In this document: in pieces, positions 1 through 7,139 of the stretch
Position numbering within the stretch: the stretch's first letter is position 1
Layout: each line of letters starts with the position of its first letter
Made by a program: the position numbers and the translations under genes
Source of the DNA: Neisseria perflava
GTDB taxonomy: Bacteria; Pseudomonadota; Gammaproteobacteria; Burkholderiales; Neisseriaceae
Assembly: GCF_024170405.1 (NCBI RefSeq)
Contig: NZ_JALJYC010000046.1
Span: 1-7,139 of the forward strand
Direction: 5' to 3'
Length of the DNA: 7,139 nucleotides
Notes under the pieces: generated by a model
What the model was told of the DNA's origin: nothing
Database searches by the model: none
What the model saw: the letters and a program-made list of their open reading frames with translations, nothing else

Positions 1-1
1 A

Positions 2-13
2 AGGCCGTCTGAA
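2..13 (+). repeat. DNA uptake sequence, 12-mer AGGCCGTCTGAA (AG-type extension)
   Basis: Exact GCCGTCTGAA core at 4-13, preceded by AG. Confidence 0.9.
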
Positions 14-24
14 ATCACTCCCGT

Positions 25-36
25 TTCAGACGGCCT
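25..36 (-). repeat. DNA uptake sequence, 12-mer AGGCCGTCTGAA on the minus strand
   Basis: TTCAGACGGCCT at 25-36 is the reverse complement of AGGCCGTCTGAA. Confidence 0.9.
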
Positions 37-70
37 TATATATTTAAAGCTCCTAAAAGGGGCATTTCAA

Positions 71-81
71 ACGGTATCTTG
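71..81 (+). repeat. Copy 1 of the exact 11-mer ACGGTATCTTG (candidate attL/recombination core)
   Basis: Identical 11-mers at 71-81, 6117-6127 and 7126-7136, all in direct orientation. Copy 1 lies 34 nt right of the flank terminator. Confidence 0.6.
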
Positions 82-115
82 AGCCGAGTAGCTCGTATCA
101 CACCGTAAGGCTGAT

Positions 116-144
116 AGCCCCTTCAATTTAAAGTTGTAGGGGCT
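116..144 (+). promoter_or_regulatory. Hairpin whose 3' arm contains the Shine-Dalgarno sequence of the 151-372 ORF
   Basis: AGCCCCT (116-122) pairs with AGGGGCT (138-144). An inner CAA/TTG (124-126 / 134-136) extends the stem. The AGGGG at 138-142 is the only SD-like element upstream of ATG 151. Confidence 0.3.
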
Positions 145-1757: not shown

Positions 1758-2065
1758 AAGCAAGTTTGCGTAAAGTGAAATGGAATAAAGGCGTTGTACA
1801 AGATACAGGTCGGGAATACGACTACACCCGTATCTATATCGAAGCACCTATTTGGGACGGTTCATCAAATGAATTTGGCTTAGACACCATTTAACTTGAA
1901 TATGGTAACGAAGAAGCCCATAAAAATCTGTTCCATCTTAAAGGCAAATTGCCGGTAGATATTGAAGTTGAATATATCGACATGGTTAAAGGCAATGACG
2001 TTTTGAAAGTCGTGCAAAGCCTGAAAGTTCTGACACCGCAAGTTTCGGCAACACCGAAACCGTAA
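1754..2065 (+). pseudogene. Gene in the ssDNA-binding (gene V / RstB) position, 103 codons interrupted by an in-frame TAA at 1892-1894
   Basis: ATG 1754 overlaps the rep stop (ATGA), with AAGGA 7 nt upstream. The frame reads MKASLRKVKWNKGVVQDTGREYDYTRIYIEAPIWDGSSNEFGLDTI, then TAA, then stays open for 56 more codons (LEYGNEEAHKNLFHLKGKLPVDIEVEYIDMVKGNDVLKVVQSLKVLTPQVSATPKP) to TAA 2063-2065. The second part has no start codon or SD of its own. The function is assigned by synteny only. Confidence 0.55.
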
Positions 2066-3148: not shown

Positions 3149-4468
3149 GTGACTTATAAAAAACAGTCTGTTGCTCATTGGTATTCTAGTGGTTGGTCAA
3201 AAAGTGCAATTTCAGATAGTGCTTACAGAAACTTTCAAACTCAGGCAATGAAGGTCAGATATGAAAAGGCATTGTCGGCTTCATCTGTTCCAGTAGGTCT
3301 TGAAGCGGGTGTTTCAAGAGCAACCGTTCTAAAAAACTTATTCAGTAATTTTAAAAAATTCCGCTTTGGTGGCGGTTTTTGGACTTGGGCGGCTTTTACC
3401 GCTGTCGGTTTCGCTATTGATAAACTCCTAGAAGACGACGGCTACACCTATTCCGATTCAGGCAACAACTACACCAAAAATTATGCTTGTACAGTCAAAG
3501 CCAAATATCGTACGACGGTCTATGAAACCTTAGGCGTGTCCGATTCTGAATGCTCACGCGAATTAGGTTCAGCCATTGGTACTTATCTTTGTCAGAAGCA
3601 TTTTTCTTGGAGTGGATATACTTTTTCAGGATTTAATACAAGTAACGGAAATTGTGAATTTTCTAAAGGAAGTGATGTAAGGTCAAAAGGTAATATCACT
3701 TTTACCAAAAATCCCATAACAACCACACTTCAAGATGAAACCCTAGAAAGAATTATCGGCAAAGCCTTAGACAACGCAACAAGTACCGCTCTAGACAAAT
3801 ATATTCAAGCAACCGCCGATGAAAACGGCGATATTCCCGGTCTGGACATGACTATTTCCGTCCCTGCTGGAACAGTCGTTACCATCGGCCCATATACCGA
3901 CACAGACGGAAAAGTTAAACAAGCCACGATTACGTTCCAGCAAAGCGAAAGCGGAGAGACAACCGCCGATGTACAGGAAGAAGAACGTCCTGATTTAACG
4001 CCAAACAGCGAAGAAGCGCCGTCAGTAGAGCCGGAAGAAGAAACCGGCACCGGGTCGGGCAGTGAAACCGGAACAGGTACGGGAACGGGTAGCAGTACTG
4101 GAACGTCTACCGGAACAGATACCGGCACTTCAACCCGCACTGAAACCCAGCCGCAGGAACAAAGTTTTTTATGTGATTTATTTCCCGACATTCTTGCTTG
4201 CCAAAAAATGGGCGAACCATCAGAAGAAACATTTGAAGAGATAAGTATTCCGCAAGCAACTGATGATACAACATGGAAGCCTGATAGCTTTTTAGCTCCT
4301 AATGGCGTATGCCCGCAACCTAAGTCATTTAGCGTATGGGGTAAATCAGTTGAAATAAGCTACGAGCCTTTATGTGTATTGATGGAACAAGTCCGCTTTG
4401 CCGTTTTACTCGCATTCATTGTCATTTCTGCCTATATTTCATTTGGCGGATTAAGGAGTAAAGACTAA
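3149..4468 (+). CDS. pIII/OrfU-like minor coat (adsorption) protein; the true N-terminus is probably at 3066 via the T7 tract
   Basis: 439-aa ORF from GTG 3149, in the position before the pVI-like and Zot-like genes. It has an acidic and Gly/Thr/Ser-rich linker (EEETGTGSGSETGTGTGTGSSTGTSTGTDTGTSTRTET), a Cys-containing C-terminal domain and a terminal membrane anchor (FAVLLAFIVISAYISFGG). The in-frame upstream sequence encodes ...FLSGLLLCSSFAFA/ELNV. Confidence 0.8.
   Translation: MTYKKQSVAHWYSSGWSKSAISDSAYRNFQTQAMKVRYEKALSASSVPVGLEAGVSRATVLKNLFSNFKKFRFGGGFWTWAAFTAVGFAIDKLLEDDGYTYSDSGNNYTKNYACTVKAKYRTTVYETLGVSDSECSRELGSAIGTYLCQKHFSWSGYTFSGFNTSNGNCEFSKGSDVRSKGNITFTKNPITTTLQDETLERIIGKALDNATSTALDKYIQATADENGDIPGLDMTISVPAGTVVTIGPYTDTDGKVKQATITFQQSESGETTADVQEEERPDLTPNSEEAPSVEPEEETGTGSGSETGTGTGTGSSTGTSTGTDTGTSTRTETQPQEQSFLCDLFPDILACQKMGEPSEETFEEISIPQATDDTTWKPDSFLAPNGVCPQPKSFSVWGKSVEISYEPLCVLMEQVRFAVLLAFIVISAYISFGGLRSKD
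4043..4147 (+). repeat. Imperfect (ACN-GGN)n coding microsatellite-like tract giving a Thr-Gly/Ser-rich linker
   Basis: 35 codons read TGTGSGSETGTGTGTGSSTGTSTGTDTGTSTRTET. The repeated ACCGG/ACGGG/ACAGG units are visible in the DNA. Confidence 0.8.
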
Positions 4469-4761: not shown

Positions 4762-5499
4762 ATGATTTATCTGTTTACCGGAAATATGGGTACCGGCAAA
4801 ACCTCGCGTGTTGTATCCATGATTTTAAACAATGAAGACGGTTTGTTTAAAATGAAGCTCGAAGACGGTACGGAGGTTGATAGACCACTATATTTTTGTC
4901 ACATCGACGGCTTGGATAAACGTAAGTTTAACTCCCACGAGTTGACAGAAGAGCAAATTATGGAAGCCCCGTTGCGTGATGTAATCCCGCAAGGTGCAGT
5001 ATTAATTGTAGATGAAGCACACTATACCTATCCAGTCCGTTCTGCCGGTCGTCCTGTGCCTCCTTACATTCAAGAATTAACTGAACTCCGACATCACGGC
5101 CATACGGTTATTTTAATGACACAGCACCCAAGCCAATTAGACGTATTTGTCCGCAATTTGGTTTCAAAACATGTTCATCTTGAGCGTAAAGCAGTCGGAA
5201 TGAAGCAGTATTGGTGGTACAAGTGCGTAACCAGTTTAGACAATCCGGCCGGTGTCAGCGGCGTGGAATCTGCAAGTTGGAAACCGCCTAAAGAAGCATT
5301 TAAATATTACAAATCTTCCAGCCAACACCAAAAATTTAAGAAAAAAGTCCCCTTGGTAATATGGGCGTTAATTGCAATTTTGGGGTTTGTCGGTTGGAAG
5401 GCATACACCATGTACAATTTGTATAAAGAAGGTACGCAGACAACAGAACAGGTTGCAGATGTTCAAGCAACACCGGAAAGCAACATAGCAGAAAAATAA
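4762..5499 (+). CDS. zot: Zot/pI-like assembly ATPase, N-terminal ATPase domain plus TM segment (truncated relative to typical pI/Zot)
   Basis: Walker A is GNMGTGKTS (aa 7-15) and Walker B is VLIVDEAH (aa 80-87). A TM segment is present (VPLVIWALIAILGFVGWKAY), and an AAGGGG SD lies upstream. At 245 aa it is short for this family; the next frame is open from 5489. Confidence 0.85.
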   Translation: MIYLFTGNMGTGKTSRVVSMILNNEDGLFKMKLEDGTEVDRPLYFCHIDGLDKRKFNSHELTEEQIMEAPLRDVIPQGAVLIVDEAHYTYPVRSAGRPVPPYIQELTELRHHGHTVILMTQHPSQLDVFVRNLVSKHVHLERKAVGMKQYWWYKCVTSLDNPAGVSGVESASWKPPKEAFKYYKSSSQHQKFKKKVPLVIWALIAILGFVGWKAYTMYNLYKEGTQTTEQVADVQATPESNIAEK

Positions 5500-5563
5500 T
5501 CAAGGCATTAATGGGAATAGTTCCCCTAATGGCAATCTAAAACCATCCGATTTTGTACCGACA

Positions 5564-5938
5564 TTGGCCGAGCGTCCCGAATCAAAACCTATTTATGACA
5601 GTGTCCGTCAGGTCAAAACCTATGAGCGCATAGCAGCTTGTATTTCCGGCGGCAAAAGTGGATGTACTTGTTACAGCGATCAAGCAACGCCGTTGAAAGA
5701 AATCACTAAGGCTATGTGTGAGAAGTACGCCAAAGATGGCATACCATTCAACCCATATAAAGAGCCGGAAACGCAAAACATGGCCAAAGCGCAGGCACAG
5801 CACCAAACGGCAGATTCAGACGGCCAGCCGTCCCAAATCGTATCACTCGGCGGCAAGAGCCAACAGAATCTGATGTATGACAACCTAGTATCCCGTGACA
5901 GTTTCGGTACGCAAAACGGGGCAAAAGTTGGGGGATAG
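5564..5938 (+). CDS. Probable C-terminal (periplasmic) part of the Zot/pI-like protein, separated by a frameshift; alternatively an independent 124-aa protein
   Basis: This frame is open from 5489, overlapping the zot stop. It has no ATG or GTG and no SD before the TTG at 5564. It contains SGCTCYSDQATPL, which resembles a Cys-x-Cys-Tyr motif I recall in the C-terminal domains of Zot-like proteins. Joined to 4762-5499 it would give about 390 aa. Confidence 0.55.
   Translation: MAERPESKPIYDSVRQVKTYERIAACISGGKSGCTCYSDQATPLKEITKAMCEKYAKDGIPFNPYKEPETQNMAKAQAQHQTADSDGQPSQIVSLGGKSQQNLMYDNLVSRDSFGTQNGAKVGG
5815..5826 (-). repeat. DNA uptake sequence core (minus strand) inside phage coding sequence
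   Basis: TTCAGACGGC at 5815-5824 is an exact match. The 12-mer reads TGGCCGTCTGAA. Confidence 0.85.
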
Positions 5939-5946
5939 ACAATATC

Positions 5947-6000
5947 GCTGCTTTTTTCGGGTTGATAACGCTTTAGCGGAATCGACCCGAAAAAAGCAGC
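5947..6000 (+). promoter_or_regulatory. Perfect 16-bp stem hairpin 9 nt after the last morphogenesis ORF (candidate packaging signal, minus-strand origin, or part of a structured ncRNA)
   Basis: GCTGCTTTTTTCGGGT (5947-5962) is the exact reverse complement of ACCCGAAAAAAGCAGC (5985-6000). Three further pairs (5964-5966 with 5981-5983) extend the stem inward. No U-run follows on either strand. Confidence 0.6.
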
Positions 6001-6001
6001 A

Positions 6002-6023
6002 CGGGGGTTCAGGGAACACCCCG
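6002..6023 (+). promoter_or_regulatory. Short GC hairpin directly abutting the previous one
   Basis: CGGGG (6002-6006) pairs with CCCCG (6019-6023), with a 12-nt loop. Confidence 0.4.
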
Positions 6024-6030
6024 ACAGTTC

Positions 6031-6106
6031 AAACCATACGATACCGCCAAATAAACGGCCTGCCTGATAGCCTAATCAAGATTGGTACGTATGGTTTTCT
6101 TTATTT
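6031..6106 (+). promoter_or_regulatory. Long hairpin with a 38-nt loop and a T-rich tail (terminator-like end of the structured non-coding region)
   Basis: AAACCATACG-A-TACC (6031-6045, A6041 bulged) pairs with GGTACGTATGGTTT (6084-6097), giving 14 bp. The tail is TCTTTATTT (6098-6106). Confidence 0.5.
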
Positions 6107-6116
6107 GTAATTCATT

Positions 6117-6127
6117 ACGGTATCTTG
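6117..6127 (+). repeat. Copy 2 of ACGGTATCTTG, 31 nt upstream of the recombinase ATG
   Basis: Exact 11-mer. With the preceding T it shares 12 nt (TACGGTATCTTG) with copy 3. Confidence 0.6.
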
Positions 6128-6158
6128 GGCATTCAGCCCGTATAAATAAGGTTTGAGG

Positions 6159-7139
6159 ATGGTTTATTTGGGATCAGATGTATCAAAATCAACGATAGAT
6201 TGCTACATTCTGAGTGATGAAAAATCAGAACATTTCAAGATAGAAAACAATTCAGACGGCCTTAACAAACTACTTGAACAATTCAAACACCAAGACCTGT
6301 CAAAAATCCATGCCTGCTGTGAATCAACAGGCATTTATTATTTGAAAGTTGCCGAATTTCTGTACAGTTATCAGATTAAAATCAGCGTGGTAAACCCATT
6401 AGTCATCAAAAATTATGCACGTTTAAAACTGTCACGGATTAAAACTGACAAGCAGGATTCGAAGTTGATAGCGGAATACTGTCAAAATCAGAAGCCGAAG
6501 CTATGGCAACCTGACAGCCCTTTAAAACAGCAAATTCGCAGTTTGAACCGCAGAGCGGATCAACTAAACAGTTTGCTGGTAATGGAAAAGAACCGTCATC
6601 AGGTAGCGGATGATTGCGTTAAATTATCTATTGAGGAAACAATAGGCTTTTTAACCGAACAGATACAATCCGTTAAAAGACAAATTCAGGATTTGATAGA
6701 CAACAATACTGATTTGAAACAAAAACAGGGCATATTGGAAACAATACCGGGTATCGGCAAAACTACGGCTGCATGGTTATTGTCGGTATTGGTTGATTTG
6801 AACAAGTTTCCCAACGCCAAGCACTTTGTAAGCTATCTTGGTCTGACACCGGTTATTAAAGAATCCGGGACAAGTGTAAGAGGGTTATCTGTCATATCGA
6901 AAATGGGGGATAGGGCTGTAAGGAAAGCCCTATATATGCCTGCGCGTTCGGTTTGTACCCGCTCCAAGCTTTGGCGGCCTTGGTATGAGCAAAAACTTGA
7001 AGCGGGGAAACATCCAAAGGAAATTTATGTAGCCATGATGAAAAAAATATGTATTTATGCCTACACCTGCTTACAGAAAAATCAGCCTTTTGATGAAAAT
7101 TTACATAAGCGGCTTACAAGTGAATACGGTATCTTGATT
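6159..7139 (+). CDS. IS110-family (Piv/MooV-like, DEDD) transposase/recombinase, 3' end beyond the window
   Basis: My own translation gives 327 codons from ATG 6159 to the window edge with no stop. It begins MVYLGSDVSKSTIDCYIL. DEDD candidates are D7 (GSDVSK), E55 (CCESTGIYY), and D97 and D100 (IKTDKQDSKLIAEY). A Transposase_20-like C-terminal domain is present (PGIGKTTAAWLLSVLVDLNKFPNAKHFVSYLGLTPVIKESGTSVRG...SKMGDRAVRKALYM). An AAGG SD lies 7 nt upstream. Confidence 0.9.
   Translation, partial: MVYLGSDVSKSTIDCYILSDEKSEHFKIENNSDGLNKLLEQFKHQDLSKIHACCESTGIYYLKVAEFLYSYQIKISVVNPLVIKNYARLKLSRIKTDKQDSKLIAEYCQNQKPKLWQPDSPLKQQIRSLNRRADQLNSLLVMEKNRHQVADDCVKLSIEETIGFLTEQIQSVKRQIQDLIDNNTDLKQKQGILETIPGIGKTTAAWLLSVLVDLNKFPNAKHFVSYLGLTPVIKESGTSVRGLSVISKMGDRAVRKALYMPARSVCTRSKLWRPWYEQKLEAGKHPKEIYVAMMKKICIYAYTCLQKNQPFDENLHKRLTSEYGILI
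6251..6262 (-). repeat. DNA uptake sequence 12-mer AGGCCGTCTGAA (minus strand) inside the recombinase gene
   Basis: TTCAGACGGCCT at 6251-6262 is an exact match. Confidence 0.85.
7126..7136 (+). repeat. Copy 3 of ACGGTATCTTG, inside the last recombinase codons visible in the window (candidate attR / right-end core)
   Basis: Exact 11-mer within ...AGT GAA TAC GGT ATC TTG ATT. Confidence 0.6.

What the first reader, a model, noticed from the sequence alone, without database searches (positions are those of the whole stretch)
5939..6158. Structured non-coding region upstream of the IS110-type recombinase: candidate bridge/seek-RNA-like guide, or inovirus packaging signal and origin
The 220 nt between the last morphogenesis ORF and the recombinase ATG contain three back-to-back hairpins. 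These are a perfect 16-bp stem (5947-5962 / 5985-6000), a 5-bp GC stem (6002-6006 / 6019-6023), and a 14-bp stem with one bulge enclosing a 38-nt loop (6031-6045 / 6084-6097). The last ends in a T-rich tail (6098-6106). Copy 2 of the 11-mer follows at 6117-6127. Work published in 2024 on IS621 and on IS1111/IS110 elements established that IS110-family recombinases are guided by an element-encoded structured ncRNA (bridge RNA / seekRNA) whose loops base-pair with target and donor DNA. In the IS110 subgroup this RNA lies in the non-coding end upstream of the recombinase gene. A transcript spanning about 5940-6106 would be about 160 nt, a comparable size. The region also contains GATACCG (6040-6046), complementary to CGGTATC of the 11-mer. 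It contains CAAGAT (6077-6082), complementary to ATCTTG. It contains TTCAAAC (6028-6034), identical to the sequence spanning the left edge of copy 1 (66-72). The two antisense pieces overlap on GAT/ATC, as guide halves sharing a core would. These 6-7-nt matches are each within chance expectation, and two of them lie in stem arms, so they are only suggestive. The equally good conventional reading is the inovirus intergenic region. All genes are on this strand, so these hairpins would form in packaged (+) ssDNA, like the Ff packaging signal and minus-strand origin located after the last morphogenesis gene.
Basis: partly seen in the sequence, partly recalled or inferred. Interest (0 to 1): 0.8.

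Follow-up and report, generated by a model that had tools for sequence, protein, structure and literature searches.

The report
Bridge RNA guiding filamentous phage integration
The non-coding stretch in front of this filamentous prophage's IS110-type recombinase gene encodes a bridge RNA related to that of IS621, and its guide loops match the phage ends and the host DNA-uptake-sequence hairpin where the phage is inserted.

Summary
The three hairpins and the three 11-mers are real. The bridge-RNA reading is right in kind but wrong in detail.

Window 6029-6158 (hairpin 3 plus the stretch holding "copy 2") lines up with the IS621 bridge RNA:
- target-binding loop: LTG AAACGGC-CU and RTG AAUCA-AG
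- donor-binding loop: LDG ACGGUAU-CU, which is "copy 2", and RDG AUAAG

Evidence from more than 40 related loci (Neisseria, Kingella, Eikenella, Suttonella):
- 18 of 21 stem pairs show compensatory changes.
- The RTG matches the 5 nt right of the insertion core in 26 of 34 cases (0.95% across loci, p<=1e-5).
- The LTG follows the host DUS dialect.
- A covariance model built from this clade finds the IS621 bridge RNA.

The true junctions are CT cores at 35-36 and 7133-7134, not the 11-mers. The target is the 3' arm of an inverted DUS pair. "Copy 1" lies in a second, donor-loop-like leader just after a promoter that forms only in the circular phage.

Hairpins 1-2 (5947-6023) are specific to this lineage. 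Hairpin 1 could still be a packaging signal or origin.

This is a new member of a known RNA family, in a phage setting that the papers searched do not describe.

The parts
6029..6155 (+). Bridge RNA gene (target-binding loop followed by donor-binding loop). The exact 5' and 3' ends are unknown.
   Evidence: It lines up with the IS621 bridge RNA. Model R1 scores it at 108.9 bits over 6019-6162 (the window is part of the model) and also hits the IS621 bridge RNA.
6031..6097 (+). Target-binding loop module.
   Evidence: Of the 13 basal-stem pairs, 11 have changes on both sides and 92% of cells are paired. All 4 distal-hairpin pairs are compensatory.
6053..6061 (+). Left target guide AAACGGC (6053-6059) plus core CU (6060-6061). 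It has the same sense as the top strand of the left target.
   Evidence: It matches window 28-36 (AGACGGC-CT) at 8 of 9 positions. In 14 loci the best match of LT in the loop falls at this homologous position with 7-8 of 9 matches (permutation p = 5e-5).
6074..6085 (+). Right target guide AAUCA (6074-6078), core complement AG (6079-6080), then the conserved AUUGG; AAGAUU (6078-6083) is invariant and the two G nearly so.
   Evidence: It is the reverse complement of CT-TGATT at 7133-7139. 26 of 34 non-redundant loci match 5 of 5, against 0.95% for cross-locus pairs (p <= 1e-5).
6117..6125 (+). Left donor guide ACGGUAU (6117-6123) plus core CU (6124-6125).
   Evidence: It is identical to the right end of the element, 7126-7134. 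LDG and LD agree in 43 of 44 loci, including the A/G difference at position 3. It aligns with the IS621 LDG ACAGUAUCA.
6126..6140 (+). Distal hairpin of the donor-binding loop (GGGC 6127-6130 / GCCC 6136-6139).
   Evidence: 3 of 4 pairs have compensatory changes and 90% of cells are paired.
6146..6151 (+). Right donor guide AUAAG (6146-6150), overlapping the probable Shine-Dalgarno AAGG (6148-6151) of the recombinase gene.
   Evidence: It is the reverse complement of CTTAT at 35-39. Relatives whose element begins with TG carry CAAG; those beginning with TA carry UAAG. It aligns with the IS621 GCAAGG.
6159..7139 (+). IS110/IS621-type recombinase gene (DEDD plus Ser). There is no stop codon inside the window.
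   Evidence: Pfam DEDD_Tnp_IS110 and Transposase_20 match. It is 35% identical to the IS621 recombinase. D7, E55, D97, D100 and S236 are conserved.
7126..7139 (+). Right junction (attR): left donor ACGGTAT 7126-7132, core CT 7133-7134, right target TGATT 7135-7139. The -35 box of the junction promoter, TTACAA, lies at 7114-7119.
   Evidence: It is homologous to the IS621 right end TTGCAG-N6-ACAGTAT-CT.
1..45 (+). Left junction (attL). Inverted DUS pair 1-14 / 24-37, left target AGACGGC 28-34, core CT 35-36, start of the phage (right donor) TATATATTT 37-45, which includes the -10 box TATATT at 39-44.
   Evidence: (I19). The circular forms pMU1 and L096 read LD-CT-TATATATT.
59..121 (+).
   Evidence: It is conserved in every lineage, with different stem sequences, and takes the same minimum-free-energy architecture in 11 loci. 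Its function was not tested.
5947..6023 (+). Hairpins 1 (5947-6000) and 2 (6002-6023). They are specific to this lineage and are not part of the conserved bridge RNA.
   Evidence: They are present only in the closest relative with this stretch, L001 (L094 keeps hairpin 2). In L001, hairpin 1 keeps pairing through G-T wobbles and one compensatory pair, on the + strand only. Kingella and Eikenella relatives have unrelated sequence here.

Best explanation
Window 6029-6155 encodes an IS621-type bridge RNA. It serves as the guide for the integration module of an Nf-like filamentous phage.

The RNA has two modules:
- Target-binding loop. Its 5' side (AAACGGC-CU) has the sequence of the top strand left of the insertion point, which is the end of a DNA uptake sequence arm (AGACGGC-CT). 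Its 3' side (AAUCA-AG) is complementary to the top strand right of the insertion point (CT-TGATT).
- Donor-binding loop. It carries ACGGUAU-CU, identical to the right end of the phage, and AUAAG, complementary to CT-TAT at the left end of the phage.

By analogy with IS621, a recombinase tetramer loaded with this RNA would bring together the circular phage junction (..ACGGTAT-CT-TATAT..) and a host DUS hairpin (..GACGGC-CT-TGATT..) and exchange strands at the CT core.

What is shown here:
- the structure and its covariation
- the four guide-site correspondences and their covariation across relatives
- homology to the IS621 bridge RNA
- the position of the junctions

What is inferred:
- that the region is transcribed as a discrete RNA
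- that the recombinase binds it
- the chemistry of strand exchange

Hairpins 1 and 2 are not part of this element. Hairpin 1 is selected as a + strand single-strand structure and is a reasonable candidate for a packaging or origin hairpin.
For: Structure:
- RNAalifold on 34 distinct relatives predicts 14 pairs, and all 14 have compensatory changes.
- For the curated 21-pair structure, 91.6% of cells are paired against 73.3% in shuffles and 29-42% when partners are slid. 18 of 21 pairs change on both sides.

Guides:
- RTG against the right flank: 26 of 34 non-redundant loci match 5 of 5, across 15 different 5-mers. Cross-locus pairs match perfectly in 0.95% of cases (permutation p <= 1e-5).
- LTG against the left flank: 7-8 of 9 at the homologous loop position in 14 loci (p = 5e-5).
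- LDG and LD agree in 43 of 44 loci.
- RDG CAAG or UAAG tracks an element start of TG or TA.

Homology:
- The recombinase is 35% identical to that of IS621.
- The IS621 left and right ends show the same order of motifs.
- Model R1, built only from this clade, hits the IS621 bridge RNA over its full length at L083 1593-1749 (33.5 bits, E 3e-5 to 1.6e-4). It also hits the stretch just upstream of seven other distant IS110 recombinase genes.

Junctions:
- The circular relatives pMU1 and L096 carry LD-CT-RD.
- Reconstructed empty sites are inverted DUS pairs of the host's own dialect, and that dialect is abundant in the host flanks.

Mechanism: the roles of LTG, RTG, LDG and RDG are as defined for IS621 in PMC11208160.
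Against: - No expression data are available. The sigma-70 scan found no promoter in the non-coding region of the window, L009 or L015, so the source and the ends of the transcript are unknown.
- The distal hairpin of the target-binding loop is weak in this window (2 bp). The basal stem of the donor-binding loop is not consistently predicted in this clade.
- Four relatives (L002, L012, L085, L088) match the RTG at only 2-3 of 5 positions.
- The LTG has one mismatch to the left target here (A opposite G at position 2).
- This copy looks defective. It has a nonsense codon in the small gene at 1754-2065, a frameshifted Zot-like gene, and a recombinase reading frame that runs through attR. The RNA may therefore no longer be in use in this strain.
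- The E-values from R1 are rough because calibration was shortened.
Confidence: 0.88

Rival explanations
1. The whole 220 nt is the inovirus intergenic region. The hairpins would form in packaged + strand DNA and act as the packaging signal and complementary-strand origin, with no guide RNA involved.
For: - All genes are on this strand.
- The region folds equally well with DNA parameters (z = -7.7).
- Hairpin 1 is a long, near-perfect hairpin. Its substitutions in L001 keep pairing on the + strand only (G-T wobbles), as expected for a structure in single-stranded phage DNA.
- No promoter was found.
Against: - 6029-6158 is homologous to the bridge RNA of IS621, which is not a phage.
- Its loop sequences covary with the chromosomal flanks and with the phage ends. 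A packaging signal or origin has no reason to do that.
- Hairpins 1-2 are absent from the Kingella and Eikenella relatives, which keep only the bridge-RNA part.
- This reading can therefore hold at most for 5947-6023. For hairpin 1 alone I give it about 0.4.
Confidence: 0.05
2. 'Copy 2' (6117-6127) is a DNA recombination site, an internal pseudo-att site. Together with copy 3 it would let the recombinase gene be deleted or moved as a 1-kb cassette. Together with copy 1 it would excise a phage that lacks the recombinase.
For: - There are three direct copies of ACGGTATCTTG.
- Copy 2 resembles the phage junction over 14 nt (ACGGTATCTTGgGC against ACGGTATCTTGaGC at copy 1).
- Recombination that relies only on donor-arm recognition has been reported for IS621 (bioRxiv 10.64898/2026.08.31.748434, abstract).
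Against: - The same motif sits at the same place inside the IS621 bridge RNA, where it is the experimentally defined left donor guide (PMC11208160).
- It is followed by a covarying hairpin and by the RDG, as in a donor-binding loop.
- None of the loci examined shows a recombinase-only cassette or a phage ending at copy 2. The junctions found are at the LD next to the -35 box and at the DUS.
Confidence: 0.05
3. The conserved structure is only a cis-acting leader of the recombinase mRNA. It would control translation or stability (the RDG region overlaps the ribosome-binding site) and would have no role in choosing DNA sites.
For: - It lies directly upstream of the ATG.
- AAGG (6148-6151) is both the RDG and the likely Shine-Dalgarno sequence.
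- The minimum-free-energy fold of the window pairs this region with 6106-6116.
Against: - A leader would not covary with the 5 nt of host DNA beyond the far end of the gene, nor with the host DUS dialect.
- A regulatory side-role is not excluded and could coexist with the guide function.
Confidence: 0.04

Closest known systems
IS621 bridge RNA (IS110 group; Durrant et al. 2024, PMC11208160; Hiraizumi et al. 2024, PMC11208158)
   Same: - The recombinases belong to the same clade (35% identity, about 320-326 aa).
- The RNA is encoded directly upstream of the recombinase gene.
- The order of elements is the same: target-binding loop with LTG..CU and RTG..AG-AUU, then donor-binding loop with LDG AC(A/G)GUAU-C(U/A), a distal hairpin and RDG (C/U)AAGG.
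- The core is CT.
- The right end carries a -35 box, 6 nt, then LD-CT, so the circle junction creates a sigma-70 promoter.
- The covariance model built from this clade finds the IS621 RNA.
   Different: - The mobile unit is a 7.1-kb inovirus, not a 1.3-kb IS.
- About 6 kb of phage genes lie between the donor junction with its promoter and the bridge RNA.
- No counterpart of the IS621 5' stem-loop is conserved in this clade.
- A second module resembling a donor-binding loop follows the junction promoter.
- The target is the DUS rather than REP sequences.
seekRNA of IS1111 and ISEc21 (Siddiquee et al. 2024, PMC11187229)
   Same: It works on the same principle: a short RNA derived from a non-coding region, with segments matching both strands of the target, guides a DEDD transposase. 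For the IS110 type, the non-coding region is upstream of the gene.
   Different: - IS1111-type elements carry the RNA downstream of the gene and have subterminal inverted repeats.
- Their two target-matching segments are in the opposite order.
- None of this applies here.
Nf1-Nf4 / MDA filamentous prophages of Neisseria, integrated at dRS3 by their IS110/PivNM transposase (Kawai et al. 2005; PMC7058167)
   Same: - The phage type and gene set are the same (Rep_trans, TspB, Zot, IS110 transposase at the right end).
- Integration occurs at a CT inside an abundant host repeat.
   Different: - The recombinase here is only 33-38% identical to those found in N. sicca and N. gonorrhoeae loci.
- The target here is the DUS inverted repeat, not dRS3.
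- No RNA guide has been described for Nf phages in the papers searched.
Ff (M13/f1) intergenic region: packaging signal, minus- and plus-strand origins
   Same: Both are a non-coding stretch after the morphogenesis genes, with large hairpins on the packaged strand. Hairpin 1 (5947-6000) fits this picture.
   Different: The conserved part (6029-6158) is shared with a non-phage IS, and its loops track recombination sites. No sequence similarity to the Ff intergenic region was examined.

Membership tests
IS110-group (IS621-type) bridge RNA | Encoded in the non-coding stretch directly 5' of an IS110-group DEDD/Ser recombinase gene, on the same strand | tested here: met
   The ORF starts at 6159 and matches Pfam DEDD_Tnp_IS110 and Transposase_20. 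It is 35% identical to the IS621 recombinase. The element occupies 6029-6155.
IS110-group (IS621-type) bridge RNA | Two stem/internal-loop modules in the order target-binding loop then donor-binding loop, supported by covariation | tested here: met
   [quoted passage not shown] The basal stem of the donor-binding loop is not consistently predicted.
IS110-group (IS621-type) bridge RNA | LTG has the sequence of left target plus core; RTG is the reverse complement of core plus right target; both covary with the insertion site | tested here: met
   In the window, LTG matches 8 of 9 and RTG 7 of 7 (core plus 5). Across relatives, RTG matches perfectly in 26 of 34 (p <= 1e-5) and LTG at 7-8 of 9 in 14 loci (p = 5e-5).
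IS110-group (IS621-type) bridge RNA | LDG and RDG match the element's own right and left ends across a shared core dinucleotide | tested here: met
   LDG 6117-6125 equals 7126-7134. RDG AUAAG is the reverse complement of 35-39. LDG and LD agree in 43 of 44 loci. The circular junctions of pMU1 and L096 read LD-CT-RD.
IS110-group (IS621-type) bridge RNA | Sequence and structure homology to an experimentally validated bridge RNA | tested here: met
   Model R1, which contains no IS621 sequence, hits L083 1593-1749 over its full length at 33.5 bits (E 3e-5 to 1.6e-4, rough). LTG, RTG, LDG and RDG align correctly. Rfam 15 has no such family: the IS621 RNA itself gets no relevant hit.
IS110-group (IS621-type) bridge RNA | The RE-LE junction of the circular form creates a promoter that drives the adjacent bridge RNA | tested here: inconclusive
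   A junction promoter is present: pMU1 TTGACT-18-TATATT and L096 TTGACA-17-TATATT. In the window, read by eye, it is TTACAA-17-TATATT. However, it lies 6 kb upstream of the bridge RNA, and what follows it directly is only a leader resembling a donor-binding loop. No promoter was found next to the bridge RNA.
IS110-group (IS621-type) bridge RNA | The RNA is expressed, bound by the recombinase and required for recombination | not testable with these tools
   This needs RNA-seq or Northern blots, co-purification and recombination assays.
IS1111-type seekRNA | Non-coding region downstream of the transposase gene; subterminal inverted repeats; target-matching segments in the reverse order | tested here: not met
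   The element is upstream of the gene and has the IS110-type order, LTG then RTG. No subterminal inverted repeats were seen.
Ff-type inovirus intergenic region (packaging signal / origins) | Hairpins on the packaged strand, needed for packaging or complementary-strand synthesis and specific to the phage | tested here: inconclusive
   Not met for 6029-6158, which is shared with IS621 and whose loops track att sites. Hairpin 1 remains open: pairing is kept on the + strand in L001, but the hairpin is absent from more distant relatives. Function cannot be tested here.
Neisseria Nf-type filamentous prophage | Rep_trans, TspB-like and Zot genes, with an IS110-family transposase at the right end | tested here: met
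   Pfam hits. The gene order is shared with L001 and pMU1.
Neisseria Nf-type filamentous prophage | Integration into dRS3 repeats (ATTCCC-N8-GGGAAT) | tested here: not met
   The junctions lie at the 3' arm of an inverted DUS pair in 15 loci with both junctions (the window and 14 relatives). No dRS3 is present at either junction.

The most novel reading that the evidence does not exclude
This phage lineage may have rewired the IS110 bridge system in three ways.
1. The left target guide is kept matched to the host's DUS dialect (Neisseria ACGGC-CT, Kingella GCTGC-CT, Eikenella TAGC-CT, king3DUS CCTGCA-CT). The thousands of uptake-signal hairpins then become landing pads, and the 5-nt RTG picks a subset of them.
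2. A second RNA module, resembling only the donor-binding loop, is transcribed from the junction promoter that exists only in the circular phage.
3. This donor-only RNA either drives donor-arm ('half-match') single-strand excision, which would feed the ssDNA life cycle, or acts as a recombinase-sensing leader whose GGGGC/GCCCC stem competes with a downstream hairpin ahead of the replication genes.
Probability: 0.3. Interest if true: 0.85.

Novelty: new member of a known kind. Interest (0 to 1): 0.68.

Why it matters
This result moves bridge-RNA-guided recombination from small insertion sequences to the integration module of a virus. It gives a concrete, testable mechanism for how Nf-like filamentous phages choose their sites. 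That group includes relatives of the meningococcal disease-associated phage, and their integration by an IS110 transposase has been known since 2005.

It also shows a guide RNA coevolving with the DNA-uptake-sequence dialect of its host. That links a phage's integration specificity to the host's transformation signal.

The natural set of RTG variants (15 different 5-mers, each with a matching site) amounts to a natural reprogramming series for a compact recombinase.

The report also corrects the map of this prophage: where its ends are, and which of the repeated 11-mers are guides rather than att sites.

Tried and rejected
- Rfam 15 scan of the window gave no relevant hit. This is uninformative, because the IS621 bridge RNA itself is not recognised.
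- Megablast of the window against the phage collection gave no match.
- Sigma-70 promoter scans of the non-coding region in the window, L009 and L015 found nothing. A TAAAAT-like box about 7 nt upstream of the stem in many relatives is visible by eye, but it does not pass the scan and is absent from the window.
- My first working model treated the 11-mers at 71-81 and 7126-7136 as attL and attR. I rejected it when circular pMU1 showed that the DNA left of 'copy 1' is phage, and when the LTG pointed to 28-36.
- GATACCG (6040-6046) as a guide is rejected. It is a stem arm that becomes GACACCG, GACACCC, TCACGCC or GAAACCG in relatives whose donor sequence is unchanged.
- TTCAAAC as a guide is rejected, because it lies at the stem base.
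- Similarity of GGGCATTCA (6128-6136) to GGGCATTTCA (60-69) as a guide-target pair is rejected, because it is not kept in L004.
- A basal stem for the donor-binding loop was not consistent across lineages.
- The MAFFT alignment A3 of the left-end leader is not consistent with the structure, so I used per-sequence folds instead of pair counts.
- Literature searches linking bridge RNA or IS110 to filamentous phage, Neisseria, DUS or pMU1 found nothing on this point.
Full report
**What the window is**

The window is an Nf-like filamentous prophage. It carries Rep_trans (375-1757), a TspB-like gene (3149-4468), a Zot-like gene (4762-5499, continuing in another frame to 5938) and an IS110/Piv-type recombinase gene that starts at 6159 and runs off the window. 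The recombinase is 100% identical to a 'transposase, partial [Neisseria perflava]'.

**The observation**

The three hairpins are present at the stated coordinates. The 220 nt fold much better than shuffled sequence, with RNA or DNA parameters (z about -8). ACGGTATCTTG occurs at 71-81, 6117-6127 and 7126-7136.

**Relatives**

Protein-based scans returned more than 170 loci. About 50 of them carry a recombinase 47-73% identical to this one. They come from Neisseria, Kingella, Eikenella, Alysiella and Suttonella, and include viral and metagenomic contigs.

All of these keep one architecture directly upstream of the recombinase ATG:
- a long stem whose loop ends in the invariant AAGAUU, followed by a conserved GG
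- a U-rich linker
- AC(G/A)GTATC(T/A)
- a small hairpin
- (C/U)AAGG
- the ATG

Only the closest relatives keep any of the hairpin 1-2 stretch: L001 has both hairpins, and L094 keeps hairpin 2. Kingella and Eikenella relatives have unrelated sequence there.

**Structure**

RNAalifold on 34 distinct sequences predicts the long stem and a distal hairpin, 14 pairs in all. Every pair has compensatory changes.

A curated 21-pair structure adds the hairpin after the GTATC motif:
- 91.6% of cells are paired, against 73.3% in column shuffles and 29-42% when partners are slid.
- 18 of 21 pairs change on both sides.
- G-U pairs are frequent, so the structure is specific to the + sense strand.

**Homology to IS621**

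I recovered IS621 from an E. coli chromosome. Its recombinase is 35% identical to the one in the window. Its left end reads:
- 5' stem-loop
- ..AUCGGGC-CU-UGG.. (LTG)
- ..UGCGU-AG-AUUU.. (RTG)
- ..ACAGUAU-CA-UGG.. (LDG)
- hairpin
- ..UUUGC-AAGG-UUGG.. (RDG)
- ATG

Its right end reads TTGCAG-N6-ACAGTAT-CT.

The window shows the same order:
- AAACGGC-CU (6053-6061)
- AAUCA-AG-AUUGG (6074-6085)
- ACGGUAU-CU-UGG (6117-6128)
- hairpin (6126-6140)
- AUAAGG (6146-6151)
- ATG at 6159
- TTACAA-N6-ACGGTAT-CT at 7114-7134

Model R1 was built only from this clade. It hits the IS621 bridge RNA over its full length (L083 1593-1749, 33.5 bits, E 3e-5 to 1.6e-4, rough), with the four guide segments aligned. 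It also hits the stretch just upstream of seven other distant IS110 recombinase genes.

Rfam has no bridge-RNA family, because the IS621 RNA also gets no relevant hit. The negative Rfam scan therefore means nothing.

**Where the ends really are**

pMU1 of Eikenella corrodens is deposited as an 8.7-kb plasmid. It is a circular Nf-like phage genome with the same module.

In the circle, the sequence after the recombinase gene reads ..TTGACTttcgattACGGTAT-CT-TATATATTTcgcgccgtcgggggctagtcctgACGGTAT-CT-TTGCC... The DNA left of the window's 'copy 1' is therefore phage DNA.

Searching upstream for the LTG sequence followed by TAT placed the true left junction of the window at ..TTTCAGACGGC-CT-TATATATTT.., with the core at 35-36. 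That is the 3' arm of the inverted DUS pair 1-14 / 24-37. The right junction is ACGGTAT-CT-TGATT, with the core at 7133-7134. The element is 7,098 bp.

**Guide-site covariation**

- RTG. In 34 non-redundant loci with a right junction, the 5 nt after the core equal the reverse complement of the RTG in 26 cases, across 15 different 5-mers: TGATT, TTTCT, TTCTC, TTTGT, TTTTG, ATAGT, ATATT, TTGGA, TTTCC, TCGGA, TTCCC, TTGCT, TTTTT and others. Cross-locus pairs match perfectly in 0.95% of cases, and the permutation p is <= 1e-5. Two Suttonella copies differ by ACTATAG against AATATAG in the guide and by ATAGT against ATATT in the flank.
- LTG. In 14 loci with a left junction, the 9-mer of left target plus core finds its best match (7-8 of 9) at the homologous position of its own loop (p = 5e-5).
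- LDG. LDG and LD agree in 43 of 44 loci, including the A/G difference.
- RDG. CAAG goes with element starts of TG, and UAAG with TA.

**The target is the DUS**

Reconstructed empty sites are inverted pairs of the host's own uptake sequence:
- aaggccgtctgaaa..tttcagacggc[CT] in Neisseria
- ..ttcaggctgc[CT] in Kingella-type hosts
- aggctacctgaaaa..ttcaggtagc[CT] in Eikenella
- aagcagcctgca[CT]..tgcaggctgctt in king3DUS hosts

These 12-mers are abundant in the host flanks, for example 17 in 10.4 kb and 27 in 12.3 kb. The canonical 10-mer and the dialect names come from PMC3630211. The dialect sequences themselves I recalled from that paper's figure and then checked only through these counts.

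Nf1-type phages are reported to integrate at a CT in dRS3 (PMC7058167). This clade uses the DUS instead.

**How it most likely works**

By homology with IS621 (PMC11208160, PMC11208158), the recombinase bound to this RNA pairs four segments:
- LTG with the bottom strand of ..GACGGC-CT
- RTG with the top strand of CT-TGATT
- LDG with the bottom strand of ACGGTAT-CT at the phage junction
- RDG with the top strand of CT-TAT

It then exchanges strands at the CT. All of this is inferred from homology, not shown here.

As in IS110 elements, the circular junction creates a sigma-70 promoter. L096 has TTGACA-17-TATATT (11 of 12) and pMU1 has TTGACT-18-TATATT. In the window, read by eye, it is TTACAA(7114-7119)-17-TATATT(39-44). 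Unlike in IS621, this promoter lies 6 kb upstream of the bridge RNA, and no promoter was detected next to the RNA. How the RNA is produced is therefore open. It could be processed from a long same-strand transcript, or made from an unrecognised promoter.

**'Copy 1'**

The stretch 59-121 is a paralogue of the donor-binding loop:
- GGGGC (59-63)
- ACGGUAU-CU (71-79)
- hairpin GAGC/GCUC (81-84 / 91-94)
- ..CGUAAGG (104-110)
- GCCCC (117-121)

It is kept in every lineage with different stem sequences. For example, Eikenella has GCTAGTCC/GGACTAGC in place of GGGGC/GCCCC. It adopts the same fold in 11 loci.

It sits just downstream of the junction promoter. In Neisseria and Kingella its 3' arm overlaps a hairpin that precedes the first phage gene.

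Recent work reports that recognition by the donor-binding loop alone is enough for IS621 excision, and that this releases single-stranded circles (bioRxiv 10.64898/2026.08.31.748434, abstract). Other work reports that excision is structurally disfavoured (PMC13626964). A donor-only RNA made from the circular form is therefore an attractive candidate for an excision or regulatory role, but nothing here tests it.

**Hairpins 1-2**

Hairpin 1 is conserved in L001 with three G-T wobbles and one compensatory pair, all compatible with pairing on the + strand only. It has no following T-run on either strand and is not flagged as a terminator. This cannot be decided with these tools.

**State of this copy**

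Three disruptions suggest a decaying prophage:
- The small gene at 1754-2065 has an in-frame TAA where L001 has CAA.
- The Zot-like gene is split by a frameshift.
- The recombinase frame differs from L001 by one base near 7105-7120 and reads through attR without a stop.

The guides still match both junctions.

**Verdict**

The finding is real. The bridge-RNA interpretation is right in kind, but it needed re-mapping. The RNA is a new member of the IS621-type bridge RNA family. Its setting is not described in the papers I could search: it is a phage integration module, it targets the DUS and follows the host dialect, and it has an extra module resembling a donor-binding loop.

Noticed in passing
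window 59-121: A second module resembling a donor-binding loop sits just inside the left end. It is conserved, with compensatory stem changes, in all lineages. It lies downstream of the junction promoter. In Neisseria and Kingella its 3' arm overlaps a hairpin (117-146) that precedes the first phage gene.
   Followed up: partly
window 7114-7119 joined to 39-44; L081 3746-3775 (- strand); L096 7767-7795: The junction of the circular phage creates a sigma-70 promoter, with the -35 box in the right end and the -10 box TATATT in the left end, as in IS110 elements. In the integrated state the -35 box is replaced by the DUS terminator hairpin.
   Followed up: partly
window 1-37 and the host flanks of L004, L009, L011, L012, L015, L016, L019, L101, L103: The insertion site is the end of an arm of an inverted DNA-uptake-sequence pair: the 3' arm in most hosts, and the first arm in king3DUS hosts. 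The left target guide differs between hosts in step with the DUS dialect (Neisseria, Kingella, Eikenella, king3DUS).
   Followed up: yes
L081 (NC_007093.1, Eikenella corrodens plasmid pMU1): The deposited 8.7-kb 'plasmid' has Rep_trans, TspB-like, Zot and DUF2523 genes, plus the bridge RNA, the recombinase gene and an LD-CT-RD junction. It looks like the replicative form of an Nf-like filamentous phage.
   Followed up: partly
window 1892-1894: There is an in-frame TAA in the conserved small gene 1754-2065. The relative L001 has CAA and an intact 102-aa ORF. This is probably a nonsense mutation in a gene at the position where a ssDNA-binding protein gene would sit.
   Followed up: yes
window 5493-5564: The Zot/pI-like gene is split. 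The 388-aa protein of L001 aligns to 4762-5493 in one frame and to 5534-5929 in another. The '124-aa last morphogenesis ORF' is therefore a frameshifted C-terminal fragment.
   Followed up: yes
window 7100-7139: The recombinase ORF has no stop codon in the window. Compared with L001, which ends ..GTTGACAAGTGA, the window has one base fewer, so TGA is out of frame and the ORF reads through attR into host DNA.
   Followed up: partly
L032 470-608, L033 9845-9986, L041 9843-9993, L031, L035: Model R1 also hits the stretch just upstream of more distant IS110/PivNM-type recombinase genes (33-38% identity) in N. sicca and other Neisseria and Eikenella loci. The classical Nf-type elements probably carry bridge RNAs too. 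I did not compare their loops with dRS3.
   Followed up: no
L002 5149; L085 7854; L088 8920; L012 11127: In four relatives the right flank matches the RTG at only 2-3 of 5 positions. L002 also has an Eikenella-type right end (ACGGTATCT) with a Kingella-type LDG (ACAGTATCA). These may be off-target ('half-match') insertions, recombinants between phages, or assembly chimeras.
   Followed up: no
window 4037-4146: A degenerate 12/18-nt periodic repeat encodes a Gly/Thr/Ser/Glu-rich linker in the TspB-like (pIII-like) protein.
   Followed up: no
L083 1476-1563: [quoted passage not shown] Each repeat is preceded by a ..GGC-CT-TGTATTATCC junction.
   Followed up: no
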